The position numbers and the translations under genes were made by a program. 64,000 nt of DNA from an uncultured Victivallales bacterium. GTDB lineage: Bacteria > Verrucomicrobiota > Lentisphaeria > Victivallales > UBA1829. The stretch lies in contig CAYWZD010000001.1 in the NCBI GenBank assembly GCA_964462755.1, positions 1,957 to 65,956 on the forward strand. The letters are read 5' to 3'. Positions 7,935 through 31,711 of this stretch are shown one piece after another (positions within the stretch are counted from its first letter, which is position 1; every line of letters begins with the position of its first letter). The notes under the pieces are model-generated. The model saw only the letters and a list, made by a program, of their open reading frames with translations. It had not been told where the DNA came from and ran no database searches.

Positions 7935-7958
7935 CCTTCTATATCGGGAGCGGTATTA

Positions 7959-8948
7959 ATGCAGAAAGTCACAATCAGCGATGTCGCACATGAGGCTGGA
8001 TGTTCCAAAGCCACGGTTTCCTATGTGATCAATCGGACACGGCCGATCAGCGAACAAGTGCGAAAAAAAGTTCTGGATGCGGCGGAGCGTCTTGGGTATC
8101 ACCCTTCCGGAAAACGGAATACACCGCAGAGACGTTCCATTGCCCTGCTGGTCCGCGGAGATTTCCGGGTCGGGGACGAACCGGCGTTTACATTTCATCA
8201 TGAGATTCTCCGCAGAGGTTATATCCCGCAGATTTTCATGTGCGGACCGGATGTGGAATCCTTGAAACTGGTACTCGCCGCGATTGGAAACGACCGGAAT
8301 GTCGCCGGCGTCATCAATGCCGTCCCGACGATTGGAAGCTTGAACCTGCTGAAATATTGCCGGGAACTCCCTTCTTTTGTCTTTGCACGCAACGGATGCA
8401 TGCTTTGCTCCGTCCACTGCAATTATACACATCGAATGCGTCTGGCGCTTTCGCATCTGCATTCCCTCGGACACCGTAAAGTCATATTTTTCATAGACTC
8501 TTCCACCGTGGATAAGCCGCAGATGATCAGCAATATTACATTTCTCCAAGAATATTCTCAATCGGTTGAAATGGGAACGCGAATTGTAACACATCCGGAA
8601 CAGCGGGACAATCGGGCCCTTTTCCCGAAGCTGGATAAAGTATGGAAGGATGGCTTTACCGCGGTTCTTGCATGGAATGATTTTTTTGCCGAAATGATAT
8701 ACCAATGGGCTTATGAACGGAACATTCGAATTCCGGATGCTCTGTCGATCCTGGCTTTCTGCGATGAATTCAGGGCACAGGGATTTGCTCCGCCGCTGAC
8801 TTCCGTGCAGATTCCGCTCGAGAAGCTCGTGCATTATACCGTGGATGCGCTTCTCGCACGGATCGAAGACCGCAAAACGGAAGAAGTCCTTCTGCATCCT
8901 TTCCTTTCTCCCGGTGCCTCCACCGGTCCCGCATTGAAAAAACATTGA
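7959..8948 (+). CDS. LacI-family transcriptional regulator
   Basis: HTH MQKVTISDVAHEAGCSKATVSYVINRTRPISEQVRKKVLDAAERLGYHPS plus a sugar-binding-type C-terminal domain. Confidence 0.9.
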   Translation: MQKVTISDVAHEAGCSKATVSYVINRTRPISEQVRKKVLDAAERLGYHPSGKRNTPQRRSIALLVRGDFRVGDEPAFTFHHEILRRGYIPQIFMCGPDVESLKLVLAAIGNDRNVAGVINAVPTIGSLNLLKYCRELPSFVFARNGCMLCSVHCNYTHRMRLALSHLHSLGHRKVIFFIDSSTVDKPQMISNITFLQEYSQSVEMGTRIVTHPEQRDNRALFPKLDKVWKDGFTAVLAWNDFFAEMIYQWAYERNIRIPDALSILAFCDEFRAQGFAPPLTSVQIPLEKLVHYTVDALLARIEDRKTEEVLLHPFLSPGASTGPALKKH

Positions 8949-8987
8949 ACGAAATCAGATTCTTTTCCATCTCCCCGCCGTTTTCTT

Positions 8988-9036
8988 GAAACCGGTTCGC
9001 TCCTTTGATATTTTATTTCTTCAAAGGAGCGGTTTC
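8988..9036 (+). promoter_or_regulatory. strong hairpin that sequesters the Shine-Dalgarno sequence of the activase gene
   Basis: GAAAC-(cggtt bulge)-CGCTCCTTTGA [tattttatttct] TCAAAGGAGCG-GTTTC gives 11 + 5 perfect base pairs. The 3' arm contains the AAGGAG SD (9024..9029), which ends 8 nt before the ATG at 9038. No U tract follows. Confidence 0.5.
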
Positions 9037-9037
9037 C

Positions 9038-9940
9038 ATGAACGGAATCATTACTGAAATTCAGCATGGGGCGGTGCATGACGGACCCGGCTTGAGAAGC
9101 GTTGTATTCCTCAAGGGGTGCCAGATGCACTGTTTCTGGTGTCACAACCCGGAGACAATTTCATCCGGGCGCCAGCTCTCTCTCGACGAGTTGAAGTGTC
9201 TTGGATGCGGACGATGTTTTTCCCTCTGTTCCGCACACAAACTTCTTGACGGACGACACCGGATCGAACGGGAGCTCTGCAACGGCTGTTTCCATTGTGT
9301 ACAAGAGTGCCTCTCGGGAGCGCTGAGCATTTGCGGATGCGAAATCTCCGTCGATGAAGTTATGAATGACATTCTTGACGACATGGTGTTTTACAAGGAA
9401 TCCGGCGGAGGAGTTACCGTTTCCGGCGGGGAACCGGGATGTCAACCCGGATTTACGGCGGAAATTCTGCGTCGCTGCCGCGAAAAATGGATTCACACAG
9501 CCATCGAAACCAACCTCGGATATTCACTCTCCGTCCTTGAAACGCTTACCGCCGATTGCAATCTGGTGATGGCGGACTTGAAGCATATCGATCCGCAAAA
9601 ACACCGTGCCGGAACAGGATGCGACAACCGGCAGGTAATGGAAAACCTCCGTTCGTTGACGGTGCCGCTGATTCTGCGGACTCCCATCGTTCCCGGATTC
9701 AACGATCATTCCGAAACCATCCGGAAGATCGCGGAATTCGCGGCGGGTCTGGACACCCTCGAATATTATGAACTGCTGACCTATCATCCACTCGGCCGCG
9801 GAAAGGCCGAATGTCTTGGAATGGCGGAGCGGACAACGCGGCTGCCCGCCCTCCGGAAGGAAACAATAGACAATCTGGTGAAAGCCGCTTCCGAAACCGG
9901 AGTGACGCTTTTCCTCAATGGGAGCCCCATTGCAAAATGA
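9038..9940 (+). CDS. glycyl-radical enzyme activating protein (radical SAM with two extra ferredoxin-like 4Fe-4S motifs)
   Basis: MNGIITEIQHGAVHDGPGLRSVVFLKGC28QMHC32FWC35HNPE carries the CX3CX2C motif. Two CX2CX2CX3C motifs follow (CLGCGRCFSLC and CNGCFHCVQEC). The track start at 9005 is a non-ATG extension, and 9038 has the SD. The stop overlaps the GRE start (ATGA at 9937..9940). Confidence 0.9.
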   Translation: MNGIITEIQHGAVHDGPGLRSVVFLKGCQMHCFWCHNPETISSGRQLSLDELKCLGCGRCFSLCSAHKLLDGRHRIERELCNGCFHCVQECLSGALSICGCEISVDEVMNDILDDMVFYKESGGGVTVSGGEPGCQPGFTAEILRRCREKWIHTAIETNLGYSLSVLETLTADCNLVMADLKHIDPQKHRAGTGCDNRQVMENLRSLTVPLILRTPIVPGFNDHSETIRKIAEFAAGLDTLEYYELLTYHPLGRGKAECLGMAERTTRLPALRKETIDNLVKAASETGVTLFLNGSPIAK

Positions 9941-12087
9941 ATAAATTTGAACTCAAAAAATATGCCGGACGAATCGAACGTCTCGTGACGAAAAAAAAAG
10001 AACAGGTGCTGGAGAAATACCGCAGGATCGGAAAAGCGGATGAGGATGACTATGGGTATGTCCTTCCACCGGAGGAGTTCGTAAAGAAGTTCCGTTTTCC
10101 GGTCGTCGATGAAAACGGTTCGTTCCACGGGGTTTCCGCATGGGCGAAAAATTACCGGGCTTTGCTGGAAGCGCATCCGGTTTACGTCGACCCCGACGAC
10201 GCACTCGCGGGACGCTGGATGTTCATGATGTCACGCATGCGCGCAGGCTATAAACTCTCGCTTGCGCCGTTTCCTGTGGATTACTCGTTTCTGCATCACG
10301 ATCAGGAACTTTACGACTTGACCCACGGGATCGGCAAAGACGCCCATTTTGCACCGGACTACCGGATCGGACTCGCTCTCGGATGGGGCGGTCTGGCGCG
10401 AAAAGTGGAAGTGTCGCTCAAGATGCACAAAGACGATCCAGAAGCCGTTGAGCTGCTGAATGCCGAACTGGAGGCGCTGGCCGGAATCCGCAACTGGATT
10501 CACCGCACGGCAATGGCGGCGGACGGCGAAATGCGTCGCATCAACCTCAAACTGGAAACCGATCCGCCGGAAACACTCCGGGAGGCGTGTCAATGGATCG
10601 CATGGTTCAACATGGCGTCGCGCACCTACAACCGCGACGGCGCCGGAGGACAGCTCGACGAGATCCTCCGTCCGTATTATGAACGGGACATCGCCGCCGG
10701 ACGGATCGACGACGAGGATGCCGTTTTTTACATCGCGTGTCTTCTGCTGAACGATCCGCACTATTACCAGATCGGTGGGCCGGACCGCGACGGCGAGGAT
10801 CGGACAAGCCGTATTTCATATTTGATTCTCGAAGCCGCCCATGCACTGAAGATTTCCTGCAATCTGACGATCAGGGTCCATGACAGAATGGACGAAAAAC
10901 TGTTCCGGCGCGGAGTGGAAATCCTGTTGGAAGACAATCTCGGGTATCCACGTTTTTCCGGCGACAACGCATTGATCGAAGGGTTCATGAACAACGGATA
11001 CCCCATCGAGCTGGCCCGTGAACGGATCGCTCTTGGATGCAACTGGATGAGCATTCCGGGACGCGAATATACGCTCAACGACACCGTTAAAGTCAATATG
11101 ATGAAAGTTTTCGAAGTCGCGTTCGATGAATTTTCAGAGACAAAGAATTTTTCGCTCGATCTCCTTCATGAAACCTATAAAAAACATCTGGCCCGCGCCG
11201 CACTCTGCATCGCCAGGGGGCTTGATTTCCATCTGGCGCACCAGTATAAAAACGAGCCTGAACTGTTGTTGAACCTGCTGTGTTACGGCCCGATCGAAAA
11301 GGGACGGGACGCCTCGCACGGCGGCATCGAGTTCTACAACATGTGCTGCGACGGCGCGGGACTTGCCGTAGTCGCGGATTCCTTCGCCGCGATTCAGACT
11401 CAGGTCGTCGAGAAAAAGAGGATTACCTGGGAACAATGCGTTGAAGCCGTTCACAGCGACTTCAAAAATGAAAATGGAGAAATGATCCGCCGTCTGCTTG
11501 CGTCTTCCCCGCGCTTCGGATGCGGAGGGACCTGCGCCGACACATGGGCGGTTACACTGACGCGAGACTTCACGGAAGCATTTCCAAACATCCGTCACAC
11601 GCCGGAGGGACATCTGATCATTCCGGGTCTTTTCTCGTGGGCGGATACGCTCCGTTTCGGAAAAACAGTCGGTGCGACTCCGAACGGCAGACATGCCGGA
11701 GAACCGTCGTCGCACGGGGCGAACCCGTGTCCCGGATTCCGCAAAGACGGCGCGGCAACGGCCGTCGCAAAAGCAGTCGCCTCGGTCCAGTGCGGATACG
11801 GCAACACCTCCCCGCTCCAGCTGGAGATCGATGCCTCATTCGTGAACTGCGGGAATCCGGTCGAAAGACTGATGGCGTTGTTCATCGCGCACTTCAAACT
11901 GGGGGGTACGCTCATCAACGTGAATATCGTCGATGCGAAAACACTCCGGGCGGCACAAAAGGAGCCTGAAAAATTCCCAGACCTGATCGTACGTGTGACG
12001 GGGTTCACTTCCTATTTCATCATGCTTTCTCCCGAATTCCGGGATTTTGTAGTCAAACGCATCATAGAGGAAAAACAATATGCGTAG
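9937..12087 (+). CDS. glycyl-radical enzyme, PFL-like/dehydratase-like fold (716 aa), with a non-canonical Cys loop
   Basis: The C-terminal Gly-radical loop is DLIVRVTG689FTSYF. Family landmarks ATPNGRHAGEP and GLAVVADSFAAI are present. The Cys loop reads ERIALGC368NWMSIPG. The track ORF from 9811 is an upstream extension that would overlap the activase. The ATG at 9937 is in frame and translationally coupled. Confidence 0.9.
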   Translation: MNKFELKKYAGRIERLVTKKKEQVLEKYRRIGKADEDDYGYVLPPEEFVKKFRFPVVDENGSFHGVSAWAKNYRALLEAHPVYVDPDDALAGRWMFMMSRMRAGYKLSLAPFPVDYSFLHHDQELYDLTHGIGKDAHFAPDYRIGLALGWGGLARKVEVSLKMHKDDPEAVELLNAELEALAGIRNWIHRTAMAADGEMRRINLKLETDPPETLREACQWIAWFNMASRTYNRDGAGGQLDEILRPYYERDIAAGRIDDEDAVFYIACLLLNDPHYYQIGGPDRDGEDRTSRISYLILEAAHALKISCNLTIRVHDRMDEKLFRRGVEILLEDNLGYPRFSGDNALIEGFMNNGYPIELARERIALGCNWMSIPGREYTLNDTVKVNMMKVFEVAFDEFSETKNFSLDLLHETYKKHLARAALCIARGLDFHLAHQYKNEPELLLNLLCYGPIEKGRDASHGGIEFYNMCCDGAGLAVVADSFAAIQTQVVEKKRITWEQCVEAVHSDFKNENGEMIRRLLASSPRFGCGGTCADTWAVTLTRDFTEAFPNIRHTPEGHLIIPGLFSWADTLRFGKTVGATPNGRHAGEPSSHGANPCPGFRKDGAATAVAKAVASVQCGYGNTSPLQLEIDASFVNCGNPVERLMALFIAHFKLGGTLINVNIVDAKTLRAAQKEPEKFPDLIVRVTGFTSYFIMLSPEFRDFVVKRIIEEKQYA

Positions 12088-13156
12088 TCAGTCAAAATTG
12101 CGGGTGGCCGTCATCGGCTGCGGAATGATCTATGCGGAACACATGCAGGCTTTCCGGGAATTGGCCGACAAAGTCGAAATCGTGGCGGCTGTGGACAGGG
12201 AACGGCGCTGTCTGGACATCATGCGGGACCGCTGGGGACTGCCGGAAACCTCGTTGTTTTCGGACTGGAAAACGATGCTTGCCGAGGTGAAACCGGATGC
12301 GGTGGACATCTGTCTGCCGAATTACGAGCATTTCCCAGCGGCCATGGATGCCATCGGAGCGGGTTGCCATGTCTATTGTGAAAAACCGCTTGGAATGAAT
12401 GTTTCCGAATGCGAGCGGATAATCGACGCAGCCAAAGAGAAATCGGTAAAACTGGGAGTCGGGTTCCAGCAGGAATACAACCCCGGTACCGAAATACTCG
12501 TCAATGCCCGGAATGCCGGGTTCTTCGGCGACCTGCGGTATGTTCACGGTTCGCTCCTGCGCCGCCGCGGGACCCCGAACTGGGGCACCTATTGCCGACA
12601 CGAACTCGGAGGCGGACCGATTCTCGACATTGCCGTTCATCTGCTGGATGCCGTCACCTACGTCTGCGGCAGACCGGAGCCGAAACGCATTACGGCATCC
12701 TGCTTCTACGGAGAAGGGAAAAATCCATGCAGTGTTTTTTGCGGCACTCCGAACTGGAACAACCACGACTACAATGTGGAAGACCTTGCCGCCGCGCATA
12801 TCACATTCGCGGACGGTCTGGTCGTCCAGCTGGAGACCTCCTATGTCAACCACATCCGGGAAGACTGCGTGTATGACTTCAAATTAAGCGGGGCCAAAGG
12901 CGGCGCCTGGTGGCAGTCCGGAAAAGCGCCGGAACTTTATGCGGATATGTTCGGGGCAATGATGAATATCTCACCGGCGTTCATGCCCTCGCAGGGACGT
13001 CCGGAAATGTTCCGGAAAAAACTCGACAACTGGGTGAATGCCTGCCGGACGGGAAGCGAACTTCTCCTCCCCGGTGAAGTCGGCCTTTACATCCAGCGCA
13101 TCCTGGACGGCATTGCGCTGTCGGCAATAAAGAAGAATGAAATCGAACTCAAATAA
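12080..13156 (+). CDS. Gfo/Idh/MocA-family NAD(P)-dependent oxidoreductase
   Basis: N-terminal Rossmann segment KLRVAVIGCGMIYAEHMQAF, then EKPL...EC and the typical C-terminal alpha/beta domain. It overlaps the GRE stop by 8 nt. Confidence 0.85.
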   Translation: MRSQSKLRVAVIGCGMIYAEHMQAFRELADKVEIVAAVDRERRCLDIMRDRWGLPETSLFSDWKTMLAEVKPDAVDICLPNYEHFPAAMDAIGAGCHVYCEKPLGMNVSECERIIDAAKEKSVKLGVGFQQEYNPGTEILVNARNAGFFGDLRYVHGSLLRRRGTPNWGTYCRHELGGGPILDIAVHLLDAVTYVCGRPEPKRITASCFYGEGKNPCSVFCGTPNWNNHDYNVEDLAAAHITFADGLVVQLETSYVNHIREDCVYDFKLSGAKGGAWWQSGKAPELYADMFGAMMNISPAFMPSQGRPEMFRKKLDNWVNACRTGSELLLPGEVGLYIQRILDGIALSAIKKNEIELK

Positions 13157-13180
13157 CCTCTTATTACGGAAAAAAGCATT

Positions 13181-14419
13181 ATGAAACTCTCACAGTCTTT
13201 CGGCGATGGAATCCACGACGATACCGCAGCAATTCAATCCATGCTGGACAGCCGGGCGTCCTTTGTCTATCTGCCTCCTCCAAAGGCGCATTACCGCATC
13301 AGCAAAACGCTGGTTTTGCATTCCGGCCAGGAATTGAAACTGGACCGTTTCACCCTGATCAGGCTCGCTCCGGCCAGCAACTGTCTCATGCTGACGAATG
13401 ACGACTATGCGAACGGCAACAGGGATATTGCCGTTTCCGGCGGCATCTGGGATTGCAACAACCGGGAACAAGCTCCCAATTACCAGCTTACCGGACGGGC
13501 CCATCCATCCACCCCGGACAAAAAAGTACCGGGCGCCCTCTGCGACTTCCAACAGCCTTATTCTCCCGATCTTTATCATGGAATCGCATTCCTTTTCATC
13601 AATGTCGAAAATTTTACCATGAAGGAACTGACATTCCGTGATCCGGTCACTTACGCTTCGCAGTTTGCCCGTCTGCGGTATTTCACAATTCGAGACATCT
13701 TTTTCGACTACCGGCATTGGAATCCGGCACCGAACAACATGGACGGAATTCATCTCGACGGAGGATGCCGTTTCGGAAAGATATCAAACCTGAAAGGGAC
13801 CTGCTATGACGATCTGGTCGCGCTGAATGCAAACGACAGTCTGAATGAATCCCCTTGCCAGGGACCGATTTCGGACATCGAAATCGACGGCATTTTCGCC
13901 GAGAAATGTCACAGTGCCGTCCGGCTCCTGTCTTTCGAGGCGCCCGTCAAACGGATCCATATCCGCAACGTTTACGGCACATTCTATCGCTATGCCATCG
14001 GCCTTACGCACTGGACCGGCAGCGGCCGAGGCGTTTTCGACGATATTCTACTGGAAAATATTTTCATCGGAAAAGCCATTCCGCGCAAGGAGGATTTCAA
14101 TACGCCGATGCTGCCGGAATACCCGCCTGTGTTCATTGAACGCGGGGGAGATATCGGACGGCTCGACATACGGAATCTGCGGCGGGAGGAATGCACCGTG
14201 GCGGTTCCGACCATCGAGATCGAAAAGGACGTCACGATCGATCGGTTGGCAATTCGGGATTCCGGATGTAAAAACCATTTGCCGAACCCCTTCGATTTCC
14301 TGGTCAACAATGGAAATATTAAGCATCTGGTTCTGAATGAAGTCTCGCTGTCGGACCCCCATGGAAAAACGCTCGCCGGAAGCGGAACCGTTCAAACCTT
14401 GCAGAGCGATGGAGACTGA
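13181..14419 (+). CDS. cytoplasmic right-handed beta-helix protein (pectate-lyase-3 / GH28-related type)
   Basis: The N-terminus FGDGIHDDTAAIQSMLDSRASFVYLPPPKAHYRISKTLVLHSG is typical of the pectate_lyase_3 domain. Repetitive beta-helix-like segments follow. There is no signal peptide. Confidence 0.75.
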   Translation: MKLSQSFGDGIHDDTAAIQSMLDSRASFVYLPPPKAHYRISKTLVLHSGQELKLDRFTLIRLAPASNCLMLTNDDYANGNRDIAVSGGIWDCNNREQAPNYQLTGRAHPSTPDKKVPGALCDFQQPYSPDLYHGIAFLFINVENFTMKELTFRDPVTYASQFARLRYFTIRDIFFDYRHWNPAPNNMDGIHLDGGCRFGKISNLKGTCYDDLVALNANDSLNESPCQGPISDIEIDGIFAEKCHSAVRLLSFEAPVKRIHIRNVYGTFYRYAIGLTHWTGSGRGVFDDILLENIFIGKAIPRKEDFNTPMLPEYPPVFIERGGDIGRLDIRNLRREECTVAVPTIEIEKDVTIDRLAIRDSGCKNHLPNPFDFLVNNGNIKHLVLNEVSLSDPHGKTLAGSGTVQTLQSDGD

Positions 14420-14479
14420 CGACGTTTCAGATCACCGTTTATTCTTGAATATCTCAACAAAAATAAAGGAAATGCAATC

Positions 14480-15565
14480 ATGAAAAGACTCAATGTCGCC
14501 CTTGTCGGGTGCTGGCATCCGCATGTTCCCCGTTACTATCCGATTCTGCAGAAACGTCCGGACACAGCCCTGACTTGTGTCTGGGATTCATCCGCCGAAC
14601 GCGGGAATGAATGGGCGAAAAAACTGGAGGTCCCGTTTTTTGCGGATTATGATGAACTGCTCAAACGTCCCGACGTCGATGCCGTGTGCATCGTCGCGGA
14701 GACAAACCGTCACGCGGAACTGATGAGGAAAGCCGCCGAGGCAGGCAAACATATCTTTACGGAAAAAACGTTCACGATTACGACCGAAGAAGCCGCGGCC
14801 GTCCGCGAGACGGTCATCAAGAACGGCGTTAAATTCGGCATTGCCTACATTCGTGCGACAACGCCCGCATTTGTGCTCGGCAAACAGCTGATGGACGCGG
14901 GATTGCTCGGCGAAGTCAACATGGTCCGCATCCGCAACGGCGTCGATGCCTCCAGAATGAACGATCTGCCGCCGGACTGGTTCGACAGAAAAATCGCGGG
15001 CGGCGGAGCCTGGATCGATCTGGGATGCCACCAGATGTATCTGATGGACTGGATGCTGGGAGAACCGCTGGACATTTCCGTCAACGCGATCCGTTATTAC
15101 GGCCGGGATGTGGAAGACAACGTCTGTGCGGCGGTCCGTTTCAGGAACGGGACTCTCGGAGTCGCGGAGTCAACCTGTTCCACGTTCTATTCTCCTTACA
15201 TGTTCGAAATCTACGGACGGAAGGGCTCTTATATCTGCCGCATCGATGCTCCGGAATCCGAAATACAGCTGGAAGCGGAAAACCTGGAAAAACTCAATGC
15301 TCTTCTGCCCGGAATCCGGCGACAGGAAAAAATTCTTGGAGGAACCGTCAGCAATGCATCCGTCAACTCGCTTTTCGGGGCAAGAGCCGTTGTGCAAGTG
15401 CCGGTTGCCGAATTGCCTCAGGGGAAGGAACCGATCGAACTCTGGCTGGATGAAATCCTTTACGGCAAGAAAAATCCGTTCGGCATCGACTGCGGATATC
15501 GTCTGACACGACTGATGGAGGGCGGCTGCCGTGCCCTTGCGGAAAAGCGAACCATAACGTTTTGA
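14480..15565 (+). CDS. Gfo/Idh/MocA-family oxidoreductase (second copy, divergent)
   Basis: MKRLNVALVGCWHPHVPRYYP...EKTF... follows the family layout. An AAAGGA RBS is present. Confidence 0.8.
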   Translation: MKRLNVALVGCWHPHVPRYYPILQKRPDTALTCVWDSSAERGNEWAKKLEVPFFADYDELLKRPDVDAVCIVAETNRHAELMRKAAEAGKHIFTEKTFTITTEEAAAVRETVIKNGVKFGIAYIRATTPAFVLGKQLMDAGLLGEVNMVRIRNGVDASRMNDLPPDWFDRKIAGGGAWIDLGCHQMYLMDWMLGEPLDISVNAIRYYGRDVEDNVCAAVRFRNGTLGVAESTCSTFYSPYMFEIYGRKGSYICRIDAPESEIQLEAENLEKLNALLPGIRRQEKILGGTVSNASVNSLFGARAVVQVPVAELPQGKEPIELWLDEILYGKKNPFGIDCGYRLTRLMEGGCRALAEKRTITF

Positions 15566-15573
15566 GGAGCCGG

Positions 15574-16497
15574 ATGAAATCTGCCGCGATTCTTTCTGCC
15601 GGAAGTCTTTTTCTGGTGTCGCTTTGCGCCCTTGCTGAGCCATGCACGTCACAGCAGACAAAACTGCTGGAAATGCGTATGAAGTCGCTCCGAATGCAGC
15701 TCAACCGTGCCATTTTGAAACACCCGGAAGACTATTCCGCGGACCGGAAAGAACATGCACTGAAAGATCTTGCCGAAACGCAACGTGACTGGCGGATGGC
15801 AAAAGAGTGGACCCTGCCCGCGCCGGAGTTCACCCTTCCCCGCCTGCCCCGGGCGCCGATCATAGACGGCCGGGCGGAAGAAACGGTCTGGCGTTCGGCA
15901 CGCGTCTGGCGCGGCAGTTTCCCCTGCTCTTCGGACAGGCATTCCGAGGACGGAACTGTCTGGCGGCTCGCATGGCATGGAACTTCTCTTTACGGCAGCG
16001 TATTCTTCCCCGATCGCGACATCACTTTTTACAAAGGACGGCAGGGCGAACCGCGGACACAGAAACGCATCTGGCAGGGGGATTGTCTGGAAGTTTTTAT
16101 TCAGCCGGATGAAAAAATTCCCTATTATGCGGAATTTCTCCTGCGTCCCGACGATACGGCATGGGTTCTGGATCACGTTCTGCCGGAAAGCGGGTTCTGG
16201 ACTACAATCCATTTCCATTTTCAGACGGAAGTGCGGGTCGCAGGACGAATCGTTGACGGAGGGTATGAACTGGAGTTCGGAATCGATCTCGCCGGCCTCG
16301 GTTCACGCTGGCGCAGACAGCCGCCCGGACGCGGGGAAACTCTGCGGATGACCATGGTCCGCATGAATCTGGATCTACGGCATCAGGGGGATCAGCCCCT
16401 TCAAAGTTCCTTTTATCCGCTCCTGCATTCCGGACACAACATTTTCGGATATGCGTCAATGGTTCTTTCCGACGCGGCGCCATTGAAAAATCATTGA
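15574..16497 (+). CDS. secreted CBM9/DOMON-like carbohydrate-binding protein
   Basis: Signal peptide MKSAAILSAGSLFLVSLCALA. Module IIDGRAEETVWRSA...WRLAWHGTSLYGSVFF...GDCLEVFIQP...YYAEFLL. The track start at 15562 is a TTG; the ATG at 15574 has a GAGGAG SD 4 nt upstream. Confidence 0.7.
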   Translation: MKSAAILSAGSLFLVSLCALAEPCTSQQTKLLEMRMKSLRMQLNRAILKHPEDYSADRKEHALKDLAETQRDWRMAKEWTLPAPEFTLPRLPRAPIIDGRAEETVWRSARVWRGSFPCSSDRHSEDGTVWRLAWHGTSLYGSVFFPDRDITFYKGRQGEPRTQKRIWQGDCLEVFIQPDEKIPYYAEFLLRPDDTAWVLDHVLPESGFWTTIHFHFQTEVRVAGRIVDGGYELEFGIDLAGLGSRWRRQPPGRGETLRMTMVRMNLDLRHQGDQPLQSSFYPLLHSGHNIFGYASMVLSDAAPLKNH

Positions 16498-21322: not shown

Positions 21323-22543
21323 ATGGAGAACTACAATATGAACGACTATGATATTGCTGTGGTTGGCGGCGGAGTCGCCGGTGTTGCGGCCGCCGTGCAG
21401 GCAGCCCGGCTCGGAATGAAAACCGCGCTGATCGAAAAAACGGCGCTGGTCGGCGGACTCGCCACAAGCGGACTGATCAACGTTTTCCTGCCGCTCTGCG
21501 ACGGAAACGGGCATCAGGTCACGTTCGGCATCTGCGAAGAAATGATCCGCAAGAGCATTGAATACGGCCCGGGCGAAATCCCGCCCGGCTGGAAAAATGA
21601 AAGGAACGGAACCGAGCGCCGCCGTTTCATCAGCGTGTTTTCCCCGGCCTCATTTGTGCTGGCTCTCGATGAAATGCTCGAAGCGGCGGGCGTCGACATC
21701 TGGCTCGATACGCTGGTCTGCGATGCACTGGAGGAGAATGGGAAAGTCACCGCCGTTACCGTGGAAAATGAAAGCGGCCGCCATACCGTCCGGGCCAAAC
21801 AGTTCATCGATGCCAGCGGCGGCGCGATCCTTGCACGCCGTCTCGGAATTCCGTGCTTCGAGGACGACAACTATCTTTCGCTCTGGTCCCTGGAATTCGT
21901 GCGTGACAAAGTCGACATGTTCATCGGAGCGGTTTACGGCGACGGCAAACCGACCGGAAAGGTCGGAAACGACGCCCTCGCGTCGGTCGGCCTTTCTCTT
22001 GAAAAGCTCGCACGGGTTGTCCAGCGCGGCATTTCAGGGAAGCAGGTTTCTGAATATCTCATGACGACCCGGCGCTATCTGCGGGCCTACTACCGGAATT
22101 GTTATGAAAGCGGGAAATCCGACCGACGCACCCACTACCCGCTCAAACTGCCGATCATGCCGCAATACCGGAAAATCTGTGCCATCAAAGGGAAACACCT
22201 CATGGCGGACGGTGAATACGGGAAATACGCAGAGGATTCGATCGGCCTGACAGCCGACTGGCGGAAAGCCGGATTCGTCTGGGAAGTCCCGTTTTCCGCA
22301 CTGTATCCTTCAGACGGTCCGGACGGAATTCTGTTCGCCGGACGCTGCATTTCTGCCGTCGGCGACGCATGGGAAGTCATGCGCGTCATTCCCGCCGCGG
22401 CCATGACCGGACAAGCCGCCGGCCTTGCCGCCGCTCTTGCCGTCGGGCAGGATGCGGAACCACGGCTACTGAATGTACATCAGATCCAGCGGGAACTTCA
22501 CGACAGGAAAATCCCGGTTCACTTGGACGAGGTTGGACTGTAA
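21323..22543 (+). CDS. FAD-dependent oxidoreductase (GIDA/FAD_oxidored-like)
   Basis: Dinucleotide fold YDIAVVGGGVAGVAAAVQAARLGMKTALIEKTALVGG. An alternative start at 21338 (MNDYD) has a GGAGA SD 8 nt upstream. Confidence 0.85.
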   Translation: MENYNMNDYDIAVVGGGVAGVAAAVQAARLGMKTALIEKTALVGGLATSGLINVFLPLCDGNGHQVTFGICEEMIRKSIEYGPGEIPPGWKNERNGTERRRFISVFSPASFVLALDEMLEAAGVDIWLDTLVCDALEENGKVTAVTVENESGRHTVRAKQFIDASGGAILARRLGIPCFEDDNYLSLWSLEFVRDKVDMFIGAVYGDGKPTGKVGNDALASVGLSLEKLARVVQRGISGKQVSEYLMTTRRYLRAYYRNCYESGKSDRRTHYPLKLPIMPQYRKICAIKGKHLMADGEYGKYAEDSIGLTADWRKAGFVWEVPFSALYPSDGPDGILFAGRCISAVGDAWEVMRVIPAAAMTGQAAGLAAALAVGQDAEPRLLNVHQIQRELHDRKIPVHLDEVGL

Positions 22544-22544
22544 C

Positions 22545-25500
22545 ATGCCGGAACGTCTTCTGAAAAAACTGCGGACCCTTCCGGCCGAAACACGCGGAAT
22601 CCCCTTCTGGGCGTGGAACAGCCGTCTTGAGCCGGAGCGTCTCCGGGAACAGATCCGTTCCATGGGGCAAATGGGATTCGGCGGGTTCTTCATGCATTCC
22701 CGGTTCGGGCTGAAGACGCAATATCTCGGAAAGGAGTGGTTCGACTGCGTCCGGGCATGCATTGACGAAGCGGAAAAAACGGGTATGCACGCGTGGCTTT
22801 ACGACGAGGACCGCTGGCCGTCCGGAACAGCAGGCGGAAAAGTGACCGCAAACCGGGAATACGCCATGCGCGGACTGGACTATGAAATTCTCGACCGGGC
22901 GGATTTCCATTCCGGCGACCTGGCTCATTTTGCCTTGTCCTACCGGAACGGCGCTGTCGATTCATGGCGCCGTATAACACATGAAAATGAAATGCGTCCG
23001 GAAGAAAAATTCATCCGTTTCACCGTCAGGACCGCGCCTTCTTCGCCGGCCGGCAACCGACAGCCTTATCTGGACACCATGAATCCGGAAGCGGTAAGGG
23101 AATTCATTCACATTACTCATGAAACCTATAAAGCGAAACTGGGAGAGGCTTTCAGGAAGATCCCCGGCATCTTCACCGATGAACCGACTTACAGTTCTTT
23201 CCATTTCAAGCAAATCTGGACGGCTTCCTTGCCGGAACTCTTCCGGGCAAGATACGGGTATGAGCTGCTGGATCATCTGCCGGAACTTTTTTTCGAACCG
23301 CACGGATGCAGGACATCCAGAGTCCGTCTGAATTTCTACAACCTCGCCGCGGAACTGTTCGTAAATGCCTACGCAAGGCAGATGGGGAAATGGTGCGAAA
23401 GGAATGGACTTGCATTCACCGGACATGTTCTCGGGGAAGATAATCTGTTTTCTCAGATGCAATCCGTGGGGTCAGCCATGCGTTTTTATGAACATATGCA
23501 GATCCCCGGCATGGATGTTTTGAGCGAGCGCTGGAACCTTTACGCTGCGGCTAAACAATGTTCTTCCGTCGCGCACCAGATGGGACGTCCTCAACGGCTA
23601 TGCGAGCTTTACGGCTGCACCGGCTGGGATTTTCCCTTCGAAGGACACAAGGCCGTCGGCGACTGGCTGGCCGCACTGGGGATCAATCTCCGGGTGCATC
23701 ATCATTACTGGTATTCGATGGAAGGCGAATCGAAACGGGATTATCCCGCCAGCATTTCACCGCATTCCCCGTGGCATGGGAAATACCGTTTCGTGGAGGA
23801 TTATTTTGCCCGGATCAACGCGGTCCTTTCCGAAGGGGAGGAGGTCCGTCACATTCTTGTCATTCATCCGATCGAATCGACATGGTTCGGGCGGCCGCTC
23901 GAATGCTACGGGAAAGAGGAACAGATCAATGTGAACGGATATTTTGTTCACACCGGAGAGGAAAAGCGGAAGGAGATGTCGCGTCTCCAGTCAATCACGG
24001 ACCTTCTTCTGCGGGAGCATCTCGACTTTGACTACGGCGATGAAGAACTTCTGACGCGTCACGCAAAGGTCGGGAAGAAAACTTTCCGGGTGGGAACAGC
24101 CGCCTATGGAACCGTCGTTCTTCCGGAACTTCTGACGGTCAGAAAAACAACCCTCGAGTTGCTCCGGCAATTCGCCGGGAATGGAGGCTCCGTTTTTTAC
24201 CTCGGGCAAATCCCGGAATTCGCGGACGGGGAACCTTCGCTGCTTCCCTTGAAATATTATGCTCTTTTCCGTCATGTGAATCTGACCGGCCTCCCGGCAG
24301 AACTGCATGCCGGTTTTCGCGAAGTTTCACTTCTATCGGAAAACAGGGAAGCCGGAGCCCTGTTGTATAACCTGCACCGGACACCTGGAATGGAATCGCT
24401 TTTCATCTGCAATACTTCCATGCTCCCGTCTGCGGATATTCATCAGTCTCCGCGAACGGCGGAACGACGGATCGAGTATCCCGATGTAAGGATTGCGTGG
24501 AAAATTTCCCGGTCCAGATCTGTTTACGAACTGGATTTGAATACAGGAAATTTCAGAACGGTATCATTTGACTTTACGGAAGGACGTGCCGTTTTTCATG
24601 TCCCGTTCCCGCGTCTGGCGTCCCGACTTTTTATTGCTTTGGAAGAAAAGATTCCGACGGGGCCGGTTCTTCTGGAAAATTCCGGTTCCGTATGGAACAT
24701 CCTGTCCGGAAATTTTGAGTATGAAATGAGCGAGGACAACCTGCTGGTTCTGGATTCGCCGGAATCCTCGTTCAACGGCGAGGAATACCGTGAGAAGGAA
24801 TACTTTCTCCGTCTTGATGAAAAAATCCGGCATACACTGAATCTGCCTCTCCGCAGCATCATGGCCCCACAGCCATGGGTTGAATGTGAAAAGAGTCGAA
24901 AAACGCTCTTTCTCCGTCTGCGCTATCGCTTCCGCTGTCGGAAAATTCCTGAAAAAGTGTTTCTGGGAGTTGAAAATCCTTCCCTATGGAAATTCTTTCT
25001 GAATGGAGTCCCATTCCAGCATATGGATTGCGGCTGGTGGTGCGATCCGGCGATCCGGAAAATCGCCCTGCCCCGTTTGTCCGAAGGCGAAAACCGGTTG
25101 GAGATGGAATCGGAATACGGCAATGATTCCGGACTGGAGTCCTTGTTTCTGCTCGGACGCTTCAGTGTCGATGACAAAGAGGTTCTGGACCCGCTGCCGA
25201 CGACATTGAAGTATGGGAGCTGGACGTTGCAGGGCTTTCCATATTACGCGGGAAACATGACCTATCAGACTGTTTTCAACTCGGGAGGGGAACCGCTCTT
25301 ATTGAAGTTTACGGAATGGAACGGTTCGGCGCTGGGAGTCCGCGTTAATGGCGGCAGTGAAAGCCTTTTGGGGTGGCCGCCATATGAGTTGCAGATATAT
25401 CCGGAAAAAGGAAAGAATGAGTTGCGGATCACGGTTTACGGACATCGCCGGAATGCGCTGGGCCCGTTTTACGCGGAACGGAATCCGTATCTGATTACCC

Positions 25501-31585: not shown

Positions 31586-31653
31586 TCAGCCTCTTTTCAC
31601 TTTCTTTAAAATTACTGCCGTTCTTATGCTTTTTCAAGTCATCCGCATTGAAA

Positions 31654-31669
31654 GGATAAGCGATTATTC
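31654..31669. promoter_or_regulatory. candidate LacI operator O1, GGATAAGCGATTATTC (CG-centred pseudo-palindrome)
   Basis: 6 of 8 half-site pairs match. It shares a 13-nt core (GGATAAGCGATTA) with O2, 58 bp downstream, and abuts the candidate -35 box. Confidence 0.55.
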
Positions 31670-31670
31670 C

Positions 31671-31698
31671 TTGACTTTTGATTTTCGTGGTTTATATT
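31671..31698 (+). promoter_or_regulatory. candidate sigma70-type promoter, TTGACT-16-TATATT, for the transketolase operon
   Basis: Sequence TTGACTtttgattttcgtggttTATATT lies between the two operator copies, about 55 nt upstream of the ATG at 31754. Confidence 0.45.
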
Positions 31699-31711
31699 TA
31701 TAAAAAGAGAA

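What the first reader, a model, noticed from the sequence alone, without database searches (positions are those of the whole stretch)
7959..16497. GRE and activase embedded in a LacI-controlled carbohydrate operon with two Gfo/Idh/MocA oxidoreductases, a cytoplasmic beta-helix glycosidase-like protein and a secreted CBM9-like protein
- Seen in sequence: the gene order is LacI, activase, GRE, oxidoreductase, beta-helix protein, oxidoreductase, CBM9-like protein. All are on one strand with overlaps or short gaps: ATGA at 9937, an 8-nt overlap at 12080, a 24-nt gap at 13157..13180 and an 8-nt gap at 15566..15573 (the previous stop is 15563..15565).
- Seen in sequence: there is no microcompartment shell gene, aldehyde dehydrogenase, sulfonate gene or PTS gene nearby. 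Those are the usual partners of known GRE pathways.
- Established knowledge: Gfo/Idh/MocA enzymes oxidise or reduce sugar ring carbons. Examples are glucose-fructose oxidoreductase, inositol 2-dehydrogenase and 1,5-anhydrofructose reductase.
- Inference: the operon may encode an anaerobic route in which a glycoside is trimmed, oxidised to a keto or anhydro sugar, and then processed by radical chemistry (dehydration, deoxygenation or C-C/C-O cleavage).
- By recollection only, E. coli PflD/YbiW were linked to anhydrohexitol-phosphate dehydration. No kinase or PTS gene is present here.
Basis: partly seen in the sequence, partly recalled or inferred. Interest (0 to 1): 0.7.

Follow-up and report, generated by a model that had tools for sequence, protein, structure and literature searches.

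The report
Uncharacterised sugar-operon glycyl radical enzyme clade
A Victivallis sugar operon carries a glycyl radical enzyme from a widespread, unstudied clade that lacks the catalytic glutamate of all known relatives and sits in carbohydrate gene clusters across several phyla, which points to an undescribed oxygen-free radical step in sugar breakdown.

Summary
The + strand carries LacI, activase, GRE, Gfo/Idh/MocA-1, beta-helix protein, Gfo/Idh/MocA-2 and a secreted protein, with the stated overlaps and gaps. No microcompartment shell, aldehyde dehydrogenase or PTS genes lie in the 64 kb.

The 716-aa GRE keeps the glycyl-radical glycine (G689), the catalytic cysteine (C368) and the counterpart of glycerol dehydratase His164 (H137). 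Its Cys loop reads G-C-N-W, whereas every characterised eliminase or isomerase has C-x-E. It is about 20% identical to every solved GRE and falls far below all NCBIfam cut-offs.

It belongs to a 715-730 aa family found in Victivallales, Planctomycetota, Kiritimatiellia, Verrucomicrobiota, Armatimonadota, Anaerolineales and Clostridia. The C-x-W motif is present in all 57 full-length representatives.

In 30 of 54 dereplicated loci a Gfo/Idh/MocA gene lies within 4.5 kb, usually on the same strand. None does in 8 outgroup GRE loci. A DgpA-like sugar C3-oxidoreductase recurs in two unrelated operon layouts. Other recurrent partners are HpcH aldolase, a PF12831 flavoprotein, an N-acylglucosamine-2-epimerase-like protein, sugar transporters and glycosidases.

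The substrate remains unknown. The most likely function is a radical C-O (or C-N) cleavage or isomerisation on a non-phosphorylated sugar derivative. I rate it a new variant of a known kind.

The parts
7959..8948 (+). LacI-family regulator (329 aa): HTH plus periplasmic-binding-protein-like sugar-sensing domain
   Evidence: Pfam PF00356 and PF13377 are above cut-off. No NCBIfam equivalog cut-off is reached. It is 79-83% identical and in the same position in L001, L003-L006 and L042. The equal-length antisense ORF 7956-8945 is a shadow ORF.
8986..9014 (+). Promoter-like element (TTGAAA, 17 nt, TATTTT) overlapping a LacI-type half-palindrome TGAAACCGGTTCGC (8987-9000) in the LacI-activase spacer
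   Evidence: Consensus scan. The exact 14-mer occurs only once in the window. The block CTTGAAACCG[G/C]TTCGCT..TTTGATAT is conserved in V. vadensis L001 and in L042. Function is not tested.
9038..9940 (+). GRE-activating radical SAM enzyme (300 aa): C28-x3-C32-x2-C35 plus two ferredoxin-like CX2CX2CX3C motifs
   Evidence: TIGR02494 scores 305 bits (cut-off 174.35), with Radical_SAM and Fer4 domains. The sequence was read. It is 72% identical to the V. vadensis activase and 40-48% identical to activases beside distant family GREs. An activase is called next to the GRE in about 40 of 63 dereplicated loci.
9937..12087 (+). Glycyl radical enzyme (716 aa) of the C-x-W clade: H137, C368-N369-W370, D382, R686-V-T-G689-F
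   Evidence: PFL-like and Gly_radical domains. TIGR01774 scores 229.8 bits against a cut-off of 678. The profile-PDB alignment puts H137 at GD His164, W370 at GD Glu435 and D382 at GD Asp447. The model has pLDDT 85.5, with TM about 0.8 to all eliminase and isomerase GREs at 18-22% identity.
12080..13156 (+). Gfo/Idh/MocA oxidoreductase 1 (358 aa), DgpA-like (sugar/glycoside C3-oxidoreductase type)
   Evidence: Pfam PF01408, PF22725 and PF02894. The best solved relative is DgpA 7xr9, E 2e-41 over the full length, against E 1e-20 for the next class. It overlaps the GRE stop by 8 nt. No NCBIfam equivalog cut-off is met.
13181..14419 (+). Cytoplasmic right-handed beta-helix protein (412 aa), GH28-like; lineage-specific insertion between the two Gfo genes
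   Evidence: PF12708 scores 22.4 bits, below the cut-off of 27. There is no signal peptide. The model has pLDDT 92.5. Foldseek matches GH28 exo-polygalacturonases, PfbA, AlgE and tailspikes at 10-16% identity. N186, D188, G189 and H191 and the pair D210-D211 are invariant; they resemble the GH28 NTDG and GDDC motifs, which is my reading. Among the first 56 family loci a tblastn match was found only in L001.
14480..15565 (+). Gfo/Idh/MocA oxidoreductase 2 (361 aa), generic sugar dehydrogenase/reductase
   Evidence: Pfam. The best solved relatives are levoglucosan dehydrogenase 6a3f and others at about E 2e-20. This subfamily is also found beside the GRE in Clostridia loci L022 and L051, at 38% identity.
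15574..16497 (+). Small secreted protein (307 aa, signal peptide), weakly CBM9-like; restricted to Victivallales
   Evidence: CBM9_1 scores 20.6 bits, below the cut-off of 23.4. The signal peptide is MKSAAILSAGSLFLVSLCALA. Only 12 homologue clusters exist in 5.8 billion proteins; every one that carries a source name is from Victivallales. No PDB sequence match.
21323..22543 (+). PF12831 FAD-dependent oxidoreductase (406 aa) in the next transcription unit; a recurrent neighbour family of this GRE clade
   Evidence: Pfam. The same family lies near the GRE in about 10 of 63 dereplicated loci from several phyla, for example directly after the GRE in L007, L068, L084 and L138. Whether it works with the GRE is not shown.
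22473..25601 (+). GH106-like (alpha-L-rhamnosidase-like) 1042-aa protein; a recurrent neighbour
   Evidence: PF17132, E 2e-16. NCBIfam AlphaRhamBT4145 scores 54 bits, far below cut-off. Homologues lie beside the GRE module in L002 (directly upstream of the activase), L049 and the Clostridia locus L051.
28127..30409 (+). 760-aa sodium:solute symporter family transporter; possible uptake system
   Evidence: PF00474. It is 55% identical over its full length to the SSF gene in the Opitutaceae TAV4 GRE locus L065. SSF genes lie near the GRE in 7 dereplicated loci. Its link to this operon is not shown.

Best explanation
This is a sugar-inducible operon of a Victivallis-type anaerobe. It encodes a cytoplasmic, oxygen-sensitive sugar-conversion module.

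Shown:
- A complete GRE and its own activase are translationally coupled to two Gfo/Idh/MocA sugar oxidoreductases.
- The GRE belongs to a distinct, widespread and uncharacterised clade defined by a G-C-[N/H]-W Cys loop.

Inferred mechanism:
- The activase installs a radical on G689.
- That radical generates a thiyl radical on C368.
- The thiyl radical abstracts a hydrogen atom from a hydroxylated carbon of a non-phosphorylated sugar or sugar derivative.
- H137, the counterpart of glycerol-dehydratase His164, protonates a vicinal leaving group such as a ring or ether oxygen, a hydroxyl or an N-acyl group.
- The product radical takes the hydrogen back from C368, giving a deoxy-keto or ring-opened keto sugar.
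- The glutamate base of all known eliminases and isomerases is replaced by W370. This Trp probably stacks on the sugar ring.
- The loss of the base suggests that deprotonation is substrate-assisted, or unnecessary because the substrate already carries an adjacent carbonyl or carboxylate.
- The Gfo enzymes (one DgpA-like, C3-specific) make or consume the keto intermediate, so that the route is redox-neutral.
- LacI represses the operon until the sugar appears.
- In this lineage the beta-helix protein (a cytoplasmic GH28-like glycosidase) and the secreted protein are add-ons that feed the module.
For: Intact catalytic apparatus:
- Domains.
- RVTG689F and C368 are present in all 49 family sequences aligned; C368 and G689 are also invariant in the separate 30-sequence alignment A3.
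- The activase scores above the curated cut-off and has CX3CX2C.
- The predicted fold has TM about 0.8 to solved GREs.

Active-site differences:
- C-x-W replaces C-x-E, while the His164 and Asp447 equivalents are kept.
- The roles of Glu435 and His164 are taken from PMC13450708.

Coupling in the window:
- The ATGA overlap and the 8-nt overlap.

Conserved linkage:
- Gfo lies within 4.5 kb in 30 of 54 dereplicated loci, against 0 of 8 outgroup GRE loci.
- 60 of 68 Gfo genes are on the same strand.
- Density decays with distance from the GRE.
- At least three unrelated operon layouts exist, in Victivallales, in Planctomycetota, and in Kiritimatiellia, Anaerolineales and Clostridia.
- A DgpA-like partner occurs in two of these layouts.

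Sugar context everywhere:
- MFS, ABC and SSF sugar transporters.
- Sugar-type regulators: LacI, XylR-like, GntR with a sugar-binding domain, and ROK proteins.
- GH130, GH2 beta-mannosidase, GH38, GH42, GH106-like and BNR_2 glycosidase-type genes.
- DUF1080 3-keto-disaccharide hydrolase and TAT-exported TIM-barrel genes.

Other points:
- No kinase or PTS gene lies in the operon.
- No BMC shell is present.
- Context types are intermixed on the GRE tree.
Against: - No substrate, product or transcript data exist. All functional steps are inferred.
- The partner sets are heterogeneous: Gfo pairs, HpcH aldolase with a PF12831 flavoprotein and BNR_2, and an AGE epimerase. One common substrate is therefore not obvious, and subfamilies may differ.
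- Gfo/Idh/MocA genes are abundant in PVC genomes (3 in this 64-kb window). Part of the linkage could be background.
- Loci within a phylum are not independent.
- Eliminations next to a keto or carboxyl group can be done without radicals. The need for a GRE alongside C3-oxidoreductases is therefore unexplained.
- The role assigned to W370 rests on sequence alignment only. I could not inspect the model coordinates.
Confidence: 0.55

Rival explanations
1. A radical dehydratase in a non-phosphorylative oxidative sugar route. A Gfo enzyme oxidises an aldose (for example L-rhamnose, L-fucose or mannose) at C1 to the lactone. A lactonase opens the lactone. The GRE dehydrates the aldonate (or the lactone) to a 2-keto-3-deoxy acid. 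An HpcH/HpaI aldolase splits that acid into pyruvate plus an aldehyde. The substrate carboxylate would replace the missing Glu base.
For: - An HpcH/HpaI aldolase lies directly upstream of activase-GRE in L007, L068, L080 and L084. The same aldolase-(activase)-GRE order is seen in L044 and L065/L066, and HpcH lies nearby in L008, L047 and L138.
- An Amidohydrolase_2 protein lies beside the GRE in L009 and L080. From my own knowledge, this is the family of L-fucono- and L-rhamnono-lactonases.
- GH106-like genes recur.
- None of the neighbour genes that I annotated was an enolase-superfamily, IlvD or UxuA dehydratase.
- Several Arg residues are invariant in the family.
Against: - Aldonate dehydration is easily catalysed by non-radical enzymes, so a GRE seems unnecessary.
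- The aldolase hits are generic, at about 105 bits against cut-offs of 369-441.
- The window operon has no aldolase or lactonase.
- The best-defined Gfo partner resembles C3-oxidoreductases, not C1-dehydrogenases.
Confidence: 0.14
2. A YbiW/PflD-like ring-opening isomerase that acts on an unphosphorylated anhydro-sugar (1,5-anhydroglucitol, 1,5-anhydromannitol, or a reduced form of 1,5-anhydrofructose). The Gfo enzymes would interconvert the anhydro-ketose and anhydro-alditols, or process the 1-deoxy-ketose product.
For: - PflD is the top sequence and structure match.
- 1,5-anhydrofructose reductases are Gfo/Idh/MocA enzymes and appear among the PDB hits of the partners.
- There is no PTS or kinase gene, which fits an unphosphorylated substrate.
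- Mannose-related neighbours occur: GH130, GH2 beta-mannosidase, GH38 and AGE.
Against: - C-x-E, which deprotonates the C2-OH in YbiW and PflD (PMC13450708), is absent.
- Identity is only about 21%, and the match to PflD is no better than to CutC or glycerol dehydratase.
- NF007437 scores 195 bits against a cut-off of 1109.
- None of the neighbour genes annotated is a homologue of the fructose-6-phosphate-type aldolase that the known pathway uses downstream (the pathway step is from PMC13450708).
Confidence: 0.12
3. A short-chain diol dehydratase (1,2-propanediol, glycerol or ethylene glycol). It would dispose of aldehydes or diols released from deoxy-sugar catabolism.
For: - Glycerol and propanediol dehydratases are among the closest solved relatives.
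- Rhamnosidase-like and pyruvate-aldolase neighbours could yield lactaldehyde.
Against: - All known C-O eliminases keep C-x-E (PMC13450708). Here the position is Trp in all 57 full-length representatives.
- There is no microcompartment shell, aldehyde dehydrogenase or phosphotransacylase in the window. No shell genes occur in any of the 56 family loci.
- The enzyme is translationally coupled to sugar oxidoreductases.
Confidence: 0.05
4. The adjacency is incidental. The GRE/activase pair is a mobile two-gene module with an unrelated, non-carbohydrate substrate. It lands in the sugar-gene-rich genomes of PVC bacteria. Alternatively, it is a pyruvate formate-lyase, as the databases annotate it.
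For: - Gfo genes are frequent in these genomes.
- Transposase genes flank the module in L017, L020, L039 and L070.
- Public names are 'pyruvate formate lyase family protein' and 'formate acetyltransferase'.
Against: - Start/stop overlaps link the GRE to a Gfo gene.
- The linkage decays with distance and is strand-biased.
- Linkage also occurs in Clostridia and Anaerolineales, with sugar ABC transporters.
- There is a single Cys rather than the Cys-Cys pair of PFL, and TIGR01255 scores 78 bits against a cut-off of 994.
Confidence: 0.06

Closest known systems
PflD / YbiW (1,5-anhydromannitol-6-phosphate and 1,5-anhydroglucitol-6-phosphate C-O lyases/isomerases; PDB 8yjo, 8id0, 8id7)
   Same: - They are GREs acting on sugar rings, and PflD is the top sequence and fold match.
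- They share a single catalytic Cys.
- The His at the GD-His164 position is aligned and present in PflD.
- They are not associated with microcompartments.
   Different: - Identity is about 21%.
- The window enzyme is about 60-100 residues shorter.
- It has C-x-W, not C-x-E.
- There is no PTS, kinase or aldolase context.
- Its partners are Gfo/Idh/MocA oxidoreductases.
- It is far below the NCBIfam cut-off (195 bits against 1109).
B12-independent glycerol dehydratase and 1,2-propanediol dehydratase (GRE C-O eliminases; 1r8w, 5i2a)
   Same: - Same fold.
- The His164 and Asp447 equivalents are kept (H137, D382).
- The activase has two auxiliary ferredoxin-like clusters.
   Different: - The Glu435 base is replaced by Trp.
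- The His281-Ser282 stretch of glycerol dehydratase falls in an alignment gap in the window enzyme.
- There is no microcompartment and there are no aldehyde-processing genes.
- The context is a sugar operon.
DgpA-DgpBC, BT2156-2160 and LgdA-C type '3-keto-sugar' pathways (Gfo/Idh/MocA C3-dehydrogenase, TIM-barrel lyase/hydratase, Gfo reductase)
   Same: - A DgpA-like oxidoreductase is paired with a second Gfo enzyme.
- In Planctomycetota loci of this layout, TAT-exported Gfo and TIM-barrel genes and a DUF1080 3-keto-disaccharide hydrolase lie in the same operon as the GRE; Kiritimatiellia loci have a TAT-exported Gfo, and DUF1080 also lies beside the GRE in Anaerolineales.
   Different: - From my own knowledge of those pathways, none contains a radical enzyme.
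- In Victivallales, Kiritimatiellia and Clostridia, the cytoplasmic gene set has the GRE where those pathways have TIM-barrel lyases.
- No NCBIfam equivalog cut-off is met (LevoglcsnDh, BT_2158 or BT_2159).
Sialic-acid (nan) type clusters
   Same: In some family loci the GRE sits with BNR_2 sialidase-like, GDSL esterase, SSF transporter, ROK, N-acylglucosamine-2-epimerase-like and pyruvate-aldolase genes.
   Different: - The aldolase is HpcH-type. From my own knowledge, the canonical NanA belongs to the DHDPS family.
- No role for a GRE is known in sialic acid catabolism.
- None of these genes is in the window.

Membership tests
Glycyl radical enzyme superfamily (PFL-like) | PFL-like barrel domain plus C-terminal glycyl radical domain | tested here: met
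   PF02901 E 2e-82 and PF01228 E 3e-13. The model has TM 0.77-0.83 to solved GREs.
Glycyl radical enzyme superfamily (PFL-like) | Fingerprint RVxG[FWY]x6-8[FL]x4Qx2[IV]x2R (PMC13450708) | tested here: met
   The sequence is R686-V-T-G689-F-TSYFIM-L-SPEF-R702-DF-V-VK-R708. Every position fits except the Gln, which is an invariant Arg in this family.
Glycyl radical enzyme superfamily (PFL-like) | Catalytic Cys on the Cys loop | tested here: met
   C368 aligns with PflD, glycerol dehydratase and CutC catalytic Cys. It is invariant.
Glycyl radical enzyme superfamily (PFL-like) | Dedicated radical SAM activase | tested here: met
   The adjacent gene scores 305 bits on TIGR02494 (cut-off 174) and has CX3CX2C.
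Glycyl radical enzyme superfamily (PFL-like) | Glycyl radical actually formed; catalytic turnover | not testable with these tools
   This needs EPR and activity assays on the reconstituted enzyme.
GRE 1,2-eliminases and isomerases (PFL2/glycerol dehydratase family) | C-x-E motif on the Cys loop, with Glu hydrogen-bonding to or deprotonating the substrate OH | tested here: not met
   The motif is G-C368-N-W370. W aligns with GD Glu435 and PflD Glu. W is present in all 57 full-length representatives.
GRE 1,2-eliminases and isomerases (PFL2/glycerol dehydratase family) | Curated family score (TIGR01774) | tested here: not met
   229.8 bits against a cut-off of 678.2.
GRE 1,2-eliminases and isomerases (PFL2/glycerol dehydratase family) | Acid catalyst equivalent to GD His164 | tested here: met
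   H137 aligns with GD H164, PD H166 and PflD H172 in the profile search. It is invariant.
YbiW/PflD anhydrohexitol-phosphate isomerases | Equivalog score, C-x-E, and a PTS/aldolase pathway context | tested here: not met
   NF007437 scores 195 bits against 1109. C-x-E is absent. No PTS component, kinase or aldolase lies in the operon.
Pyruvate formate-lyase / TdcE (the database annotation) | Cys-Cys pair on the Cys loop; equivalog score | tested here: not met
   There is a single Cys (GCNW). TIGR01255 scores 78 bits against 994.
Microcompartment-associated GRE loci (GRM) | BMC shell genes and an aldehyde dehydrogenase nearby | tested here: not met
   tblastn with shell probes was negative in the window and in 56 family loci, and positive in the control locus L058. 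Pfam found no aldehyde dehydrogenase.
Gfo/Idh/MocA oxidoreductases (both partners) | N-terminal NAD-binding Rossmann domain plus the family C-terminal domain | tested here: met
   PF01408, PF22725 and PF02894 are above cut-off for both proteins.
DgpA-type glycoside C3-oxidoreductase (partner 1) | C3-specific oxidation of a glycosyl unit | not testable with these tools
   There is only sequence similarity: 7xr9 at E 2e-41 over the full length. No curated model exists in the libraries searched.
GH28 glycoside hydrolases (beta-helix protein) | Pfam GH28 or pectate-lyase-3 score; catalytic Asp triad on a right-handed beta-helix | tested here: inconclusive
   There is no PF00295 hit, and PF12708 scores 22.4, below the cut-off of 27. 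The beta-helix fold is confirmed, with GH28 among the top matches. The invariant D188, D210 and D211 resemble the triad. Some homologues do carry PF00295.
CBM9 (last gene) | Pfam CBM9_1 gathering score | tested here: not met
   20.6 bits against a cut-off of 23.4. No PDB sequence match.
LacI-family repressor controlling the operon | LacI HTH plus a sugar-binding domain; operator binding relieved by a sugar | tested here: inconclusive
   The domains are present. A conserved operator-like site overlaps the -35 element. Binding and the inducer are not testable here.

The most novel reading that the evidence does not exclude
The C-x-W GREs may be a new mechanistic class that performs radical chemistry directly on sugar rings without the canonical glutamate base. 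They would form a radical branch of the oxidative '3-keto-glycoside' strategy. A DgpA-like enzyme first makes a 3-keto sugar. The thiyl radical then generates a stabilised alpha-hydroxy-keto (semidione-type) radical, which expels a leaving group with help from His137. This would cleave or deoxygenate a bond that acid/base TIM-barrel lyases cannot. It would allow anaerobic use of otherwise recalcitrant sugar derivatives, such as anhydro-, O-alkyl- or N-acyl-sugars from host or plant glycans.
Probability: 0.27. Interest if true: 0.85.

Novelty: new variant of a known kind. Interest (0 to 1): 0.68.

Why it matters
Every GRE that cleaves C-O, C-N or C-S bonds characterised so far keeps the C-x-E motif. 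The only sugar-active GREs known (YbiW, PflD) act on phosphorylated anhydro-alditols in PTS-containing enterobacteria.

A large clade with an invariant C-x-W is tied to sugar oxidoreductases, sugar transporters and glycosidases. It occurs in gut and environmental glycan degraders: Victivallis, Kiritimatiellia, Planctomycetota, Opitutaceae and some Clostridia. That implies an unrecognised oxygen-independent step in carbohydrate catabolism and a variant of the GRE catalytic mechanism.

The question is directly testable. The same operon is present in the cultured type strain Victivallis vadensis DSM 14823. The finding also corrects the misleading public annotation 'pyruvate formate lyase / formate acetyltransferase' carried by many of these proteins.

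Tried and rejected
- My first activase coordinates (9039) were one base out of frame. This gave a spurious '45% identity' to V. vadensis. With 9038 it is 72% and there is no anomaly.
- Naive longest-ORF calling in GC-rich loci produced antisense shadow clusters. I replaced it with a GC3-aware caller.
- NCBIfam gave no equivalog-level assignment for any Gfo, aldolase, flavoprotein, epimerase or transporter.
- PDB sequence searches for the beta-helix and 'CBM9-like' proteins found nothing.
- Rfam found no RNA element in the window.
- Terminator and promoter scans were not above shuffled background.
- Literature searches found no paper on this clade. The terms were GRE with Gfo/Idh/MocA, MocA, Planctomycetes or PVC taxa. 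One of these was badly posed and uninformative.
- Contexts of the more distant C-x-W sister clades were uninformative (P0277, P0289).
- I considered and rejected PFL, BMC-type diol dehydratase and sulfonate lyase assignments. The reasons were the Cys loop and the missing partner genes for the first two. For sulfonate lyases they were equivalog scores far below cut-off and the absence of C-x-E.
- I could not inspect model coordinates, so the spatial roles of W370, E377 and H137 are unverified.
- I could not settle on one substrate. Candidates weighed were 1,5-anhydrohexitols, 3-keto-glycosides, (deoxy)aldonates, N-acetylhexosamines and sialic-acid derivatives, O-methyl sugars and inositols.

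Full report
**Observation**

- ORF listing and domain scans confirm seven + strand genes:
  - LacI, 7959-8948.
  - GRE activase, 9038-9940. The ATG is at 9038, preceded by AAAGGAG.
  - GRE, 9937-12087.
  - Gfo/Idh/MocA-1, 12080-13156.
  - A 412-aa protein, 13181-14419.
  - Gfo/Idh/MocA-2, 14480-15565.
  - A 307-aa protein, 15574-16497.
- The junctions read exactly as reported:
  - ATGA at 9937.
  - An 8-nt overlap at 12080-12087.
  - A 24-nt gap at 13157-13180.
  - An 8-nt gap at 15566-15573.
  - A 60-nt gap at 14420-14479, which was not mentioned.
- A spacer of about 355 nt follows 16497 before the next unit.
- The two least certain labels are below Pfam gathering scores. PF12708 scores 22.4 against 27, and CBM9_1 scores 20.6 against 23.4.
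- The rest of the window is a series of glycan loci. It contains GH123-like, GH106-like, GH4, GH95, GH9 and beta-helix proteins, LacI/GntR/AraC regulators and prepilin-like N_methyl proteins. It contains no PTS component and no aldehyde dehydrogenase.
- No BMC shell was detected in the window or in 56 family loci. An outgroup locus served as positive control.

**The GRE and its activase**

- The GRE is 716 aa, shorter than the 760-850 aa of characterised relatives.
- It has the radical glycine in RVTG689F and a single Cys in LGC368NW370MSIPG.
- Against NCBIfam it reaches only 229.8 bits on TIGR01774 (cut-off 678). It is far below every equivalog: PflD-type, HypD, CutC, sulfonate lyases, decarboxylases and PFL.
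- Sequence and profile searches of the PDB put PflD, CutC and glycerol dehydratase on top with near-equal scores.
- An AlphaFold model (pLDDT 85.5) superposes on all eliminase and isomerase GREs with TM 0.77-0.83 at 18-22% identity.
- The profile alignment equates H137 with glycerol-dehydratase His164, W370 with Glu435 and D382 with Asp447.
- According to the 2026 review PMC13450708:
  - Every characterised C-O, C-N and C-S eliminase and every isomerase retains C-x-E.
  - Glu435 deprotonates the substrate hydroxyl.
  - His164 protonates the leaving group.
- This enzyme therefore keeps the acid and has lost the base.
- The activase exceeds its curated cut-off (305 bits against 174). It has C28-x3-C32-x2-C35 and two ferredoxin-like motifs.

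**The family**

- The 5.8-billion-protein search found hundreds of 715-730 aa relatives at 59% identity or more. Where sources name them, they come from Victivallis/Victivallales, Opitutaceae, Chthoniobacteraceae, Verrucomicrobiales and Armatimonadota. The exact window sequence (P0001) is on record from NCBI; the nearest named relative is a Victivallis vadensis protein at 89% identity.
- Scans of GTDB genomes and JGI metagenomes added Planctomycetota, Kiritimatiellia, Anaerolineales, Chthonomonadales and Clostridia.
- This gave 141 family loci, or 63 after dereplication at 85% GRE identity.
- H137, C368, W370, D382, G689 and R702 are invariant in 49 sequences, allowing at most one exception. 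R702 replaces the fingerprint Gln.
- The motif is G-C-[N/H/S/Q]-W in all 57 full-length representatives.
- In the 50%-identity representative library the core family spans about ten full-length clusters at 40-51% identity.
- Sister groups at 27-34% identity also carry C-x-W (GCFW, GCQW and others). The next relatives revert to C-x-E.
- One family member is a natural activase-GRE fusion (P0262).

**Neighbourhoods**

- Gene calling, clustering and Pfam annotation of representatives were done. Six precomputed contexts were added.
- The activase is adjacent almost everywhere.
- Gfo/Idh/MocA genes lie within 4.5 kb in 30 of 54 dereplicated loci that have enough flank.
  - 60 of 68 are on the GRE strand.
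  - Their density falls from 0.9-1.7 per 10 kb within 3 kb to 0.36 at 6-8 kb and 0 at 8-10 kb.
  - None lies in the 8 outgroup GRE loci.
- At least three unrelated layouts exist:
  - Victivallales: LacI, activase, GRE, Gfo, Gfo.
  - Thermoguttaceae and Pirellulales: XylR-like regulator; TAT-exported Gfo; DUF1080 3-keto-disaccharide hydrolase; TAT-exported TIM barrel; NupG-like MFS; Gfo; Gfo; activase; GRE.
  - Kiritimatiellia, Anaerolineales and some Clostridia: TAT-Gfo, Gfo, Gfo, (MFS), activase, GRE. In Clostridia this comes with sugar ABC transporters and an AraC-type two-component system.
- The common cytoplasmic core is therefore a transporter, two Gfo enzymes, the activase and the GRE.
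- Gfo-1 of the window and the corresponding Kiritimatiellia enzyme both resemble DgpA, the C3-oxidoreductase of C-/O-glycoside catabolism. Their E-values are 2e-41 and 4e-53, far better than for any other solved Gfo enzyme.
- The second partner is generic.
- Other recurrent neighbours:
  - HpcH/HpaI aldolase directly upstream of activase-GRE.
  - A PF12831 flavoprotein.
  - BNR_2 sialidase-like proteins.
  - An N-acylglucosamine-2-epimerase-like gene in a conserved AGE-GRE-activase order.
  - SSF symporters, ROK proteins, Amidohydrolase_2, GH130, GH2 beta-mannosidase, GH38, GH42 and GH106-like proteins.
- These context types are intermixed on the GRE tree. They look like parts of one pathway theme rather than separate subfamilies.
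- In the window, the PF12831 flavoprotein (21323-22543), the GH106-like protein (22473-25601) and a 760-aa SSF symporter (28127-30409) lie just downstream. The symporter is 55% identical to the one in the Opitutaceae locus.

**Lineage-specific parts**

- The 412-aa protein has no signal peptide.
  - It models with pLDDT 92.5 as a right-handed beta-helix.
  - It resembles GH28 exo-polygalacturonases, AlgE epimerases and tailspikes at 10-16% identity.
  - Its family of 400-430 aa proteins has an invariant N-x-D-G-x-H and D-D. It sporadically scores as GH28.
  - In most Victivallales loci the two Gfo genes are adjacent without it.
- The last protein has a signal peptide. It has only 12 homologue clusters, and every one that carries a source name is from Victivallales.
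- The LacI-activase spacer holds a promoter-like element that overlaps TGAAACCGGTTCGC. This element is conserved in V. vadensis and in L042.

**Mechanism (inferred)**

- The catalytic apparatus for radical generation is intact.
- The closest relatives are all eliminases or isomerases that abstract H from a hydroxylated carbon and expel a vicinal group.
- The acid (His) is retained and the base (Glu) is replaced by an invariant Trp. Aromatic residues of this kind commonly stack on sugar rings in carbohydrate-binding sites (my own knowledge).
- The partners are sugar-ring oxidoreductases and sugar transporters.
- There is no kinase or PTS gene.
- I therefore favour a radical C-O (or C-N) cleavage or isomerisation on a non-phosphorylated sugar derivative. 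The Gfo enzymes would make or consume the keto intermediate.
- The missing base could be explained if the substrate carries an adjacent carbonyl (a 3-keto sugar made by the DgpA-like enzyme) or a carboxylate.
- The alternatives are listed with their evidence:
  - An aldonate or lactone dehydratase feeding an HpcH aldolase.
  - A PflD-like ring-opening of unphosphorylated anhydro-alditols.
  - A diol dehydratase.
  - Chance adjacency, or PFL as annotated.
- None of these can be excluded without biochemistry.

**Known or new**

- The 2026 GRE review lists only YbiW and PflD as sugar-active GREs. It states that entire clades remain unvalidated.
- Full-text searches found no paper linking GREs to Gfo/Idh/MocA enzymes or describing this clade.
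- Public records call these proteins 'pyruvate formate lyase family protein' or 'formate acetyltransferase'. The single Cys and the scores contradict that name.
- I class the finding as a new variant of a known kind. It is a bona fide GRE/activase pair. It belongs to an uncharacterised C-x-W clade with a new, conserved pathway context.

**Caveats**

- Loci within a phylum share ancestry.
- Gfo genes are common in these genomes (three in this window).
- My gene calls in fetched loci are heuristic.
- Residue roles rest on alignments, not on inspected coordinates.
- There are no expression data.

Noticed in passing
P0262 (representative library; no window coordinates): A 1052-aa natural fusion of the activase (N-terminal) and a C-x-W GRE, 42% identical to the window GRE. 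It independently supports the functional pairing of the two genes.
   Followed up: partly
P0277, P0279, P0289, P0291, P0293, P0294, P0297, P0306, P0307, P0338: Sister GRE groups at 27-34% identity (677-764 aa) also have C-x-W (GCFW, GCQW, GCGW, ACPW, GCHW). The next-best relatives revert to C-x-E. The C-x-W trait therefore defines a much larger uncharted branch. Two context look-ups were uninformative.
   Followed up: partly
window 28127-30409: An unusually long (760 aa) sodium:solute symporter. It is 55% identical over its full length to the symporter in the GRE locus of Opitutaceae TAV4 (L065 15832-18132).
   Followed up: partly
window 30500-38453: A separate LacI-headed cluster. LacI is on the - strand. 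It is followed by an unknown 318-aa protein, a transketolase-like protein (619 aa), an L-fucose-isomerase-like protein (474 aa), a Zn-dependent alcohol dehydrogenase (345 aa) and an FGGY sugar kinase (487 aa). This is an uncommon combination for a sugar or polyol route.
   Followed up: no
window 7956-8945 (- strand): An ATG-started antisense ORF of exactly the same length (329 aa) mirrors the LacI gene. It is a shadow ORF and misled my automatic gene caller.
   Followed up: yes
window 8986-9014; L001 and L042 equivalents: A conserved block CTTGAAACCG[G/C]TTCGCT..TTTGATAT lies between LacI and the activase. It is -35/-10-like and has a LacI-type half-palindrome. It is a candidate operator.
   Followed up: partly
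L017 316-1176, L020 109-798, L039; L070 11205-12521: IS200-like (Y1) transposase genes lie directly upstream of activase-GRE in three Planctomycetota loci. A DDE transposase follows GRE-activase in a SusC/SusD-containing locus. This hints that the two-gene module is mobile.
   Followed up: no
window 57982-59157 (-) with 55707-58172 (-) and 54026-55735 (-): A third Gfo/Idh/MocA gene lies in an operon-like run with a GH95-like fucosidase and a beta-helix protein. An AraC-family regulator gene (59219-60097, + strand) lies 61 nt away on the other side and is read divergently. This shows how dense Gfo genes are in this genome, which matters for background linkage.
   Followed up: partly
window GRE residue 702 (codon at about 12040-12042): In the core family an invariant Arg occupies the position of the Gln in the published glycyl-radical-domain fingerprint. 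The sister C-x-W groups keep Gln.
   Followed up: partly
homologues of window 13181-14419 (for example P0171, P0189-P0195): Some members of the cytoplasmic beta-helix family are fused to PF04074 (YhcH/YjgK/YiaL; EbgC/NanQ-like).
   Followed up: no
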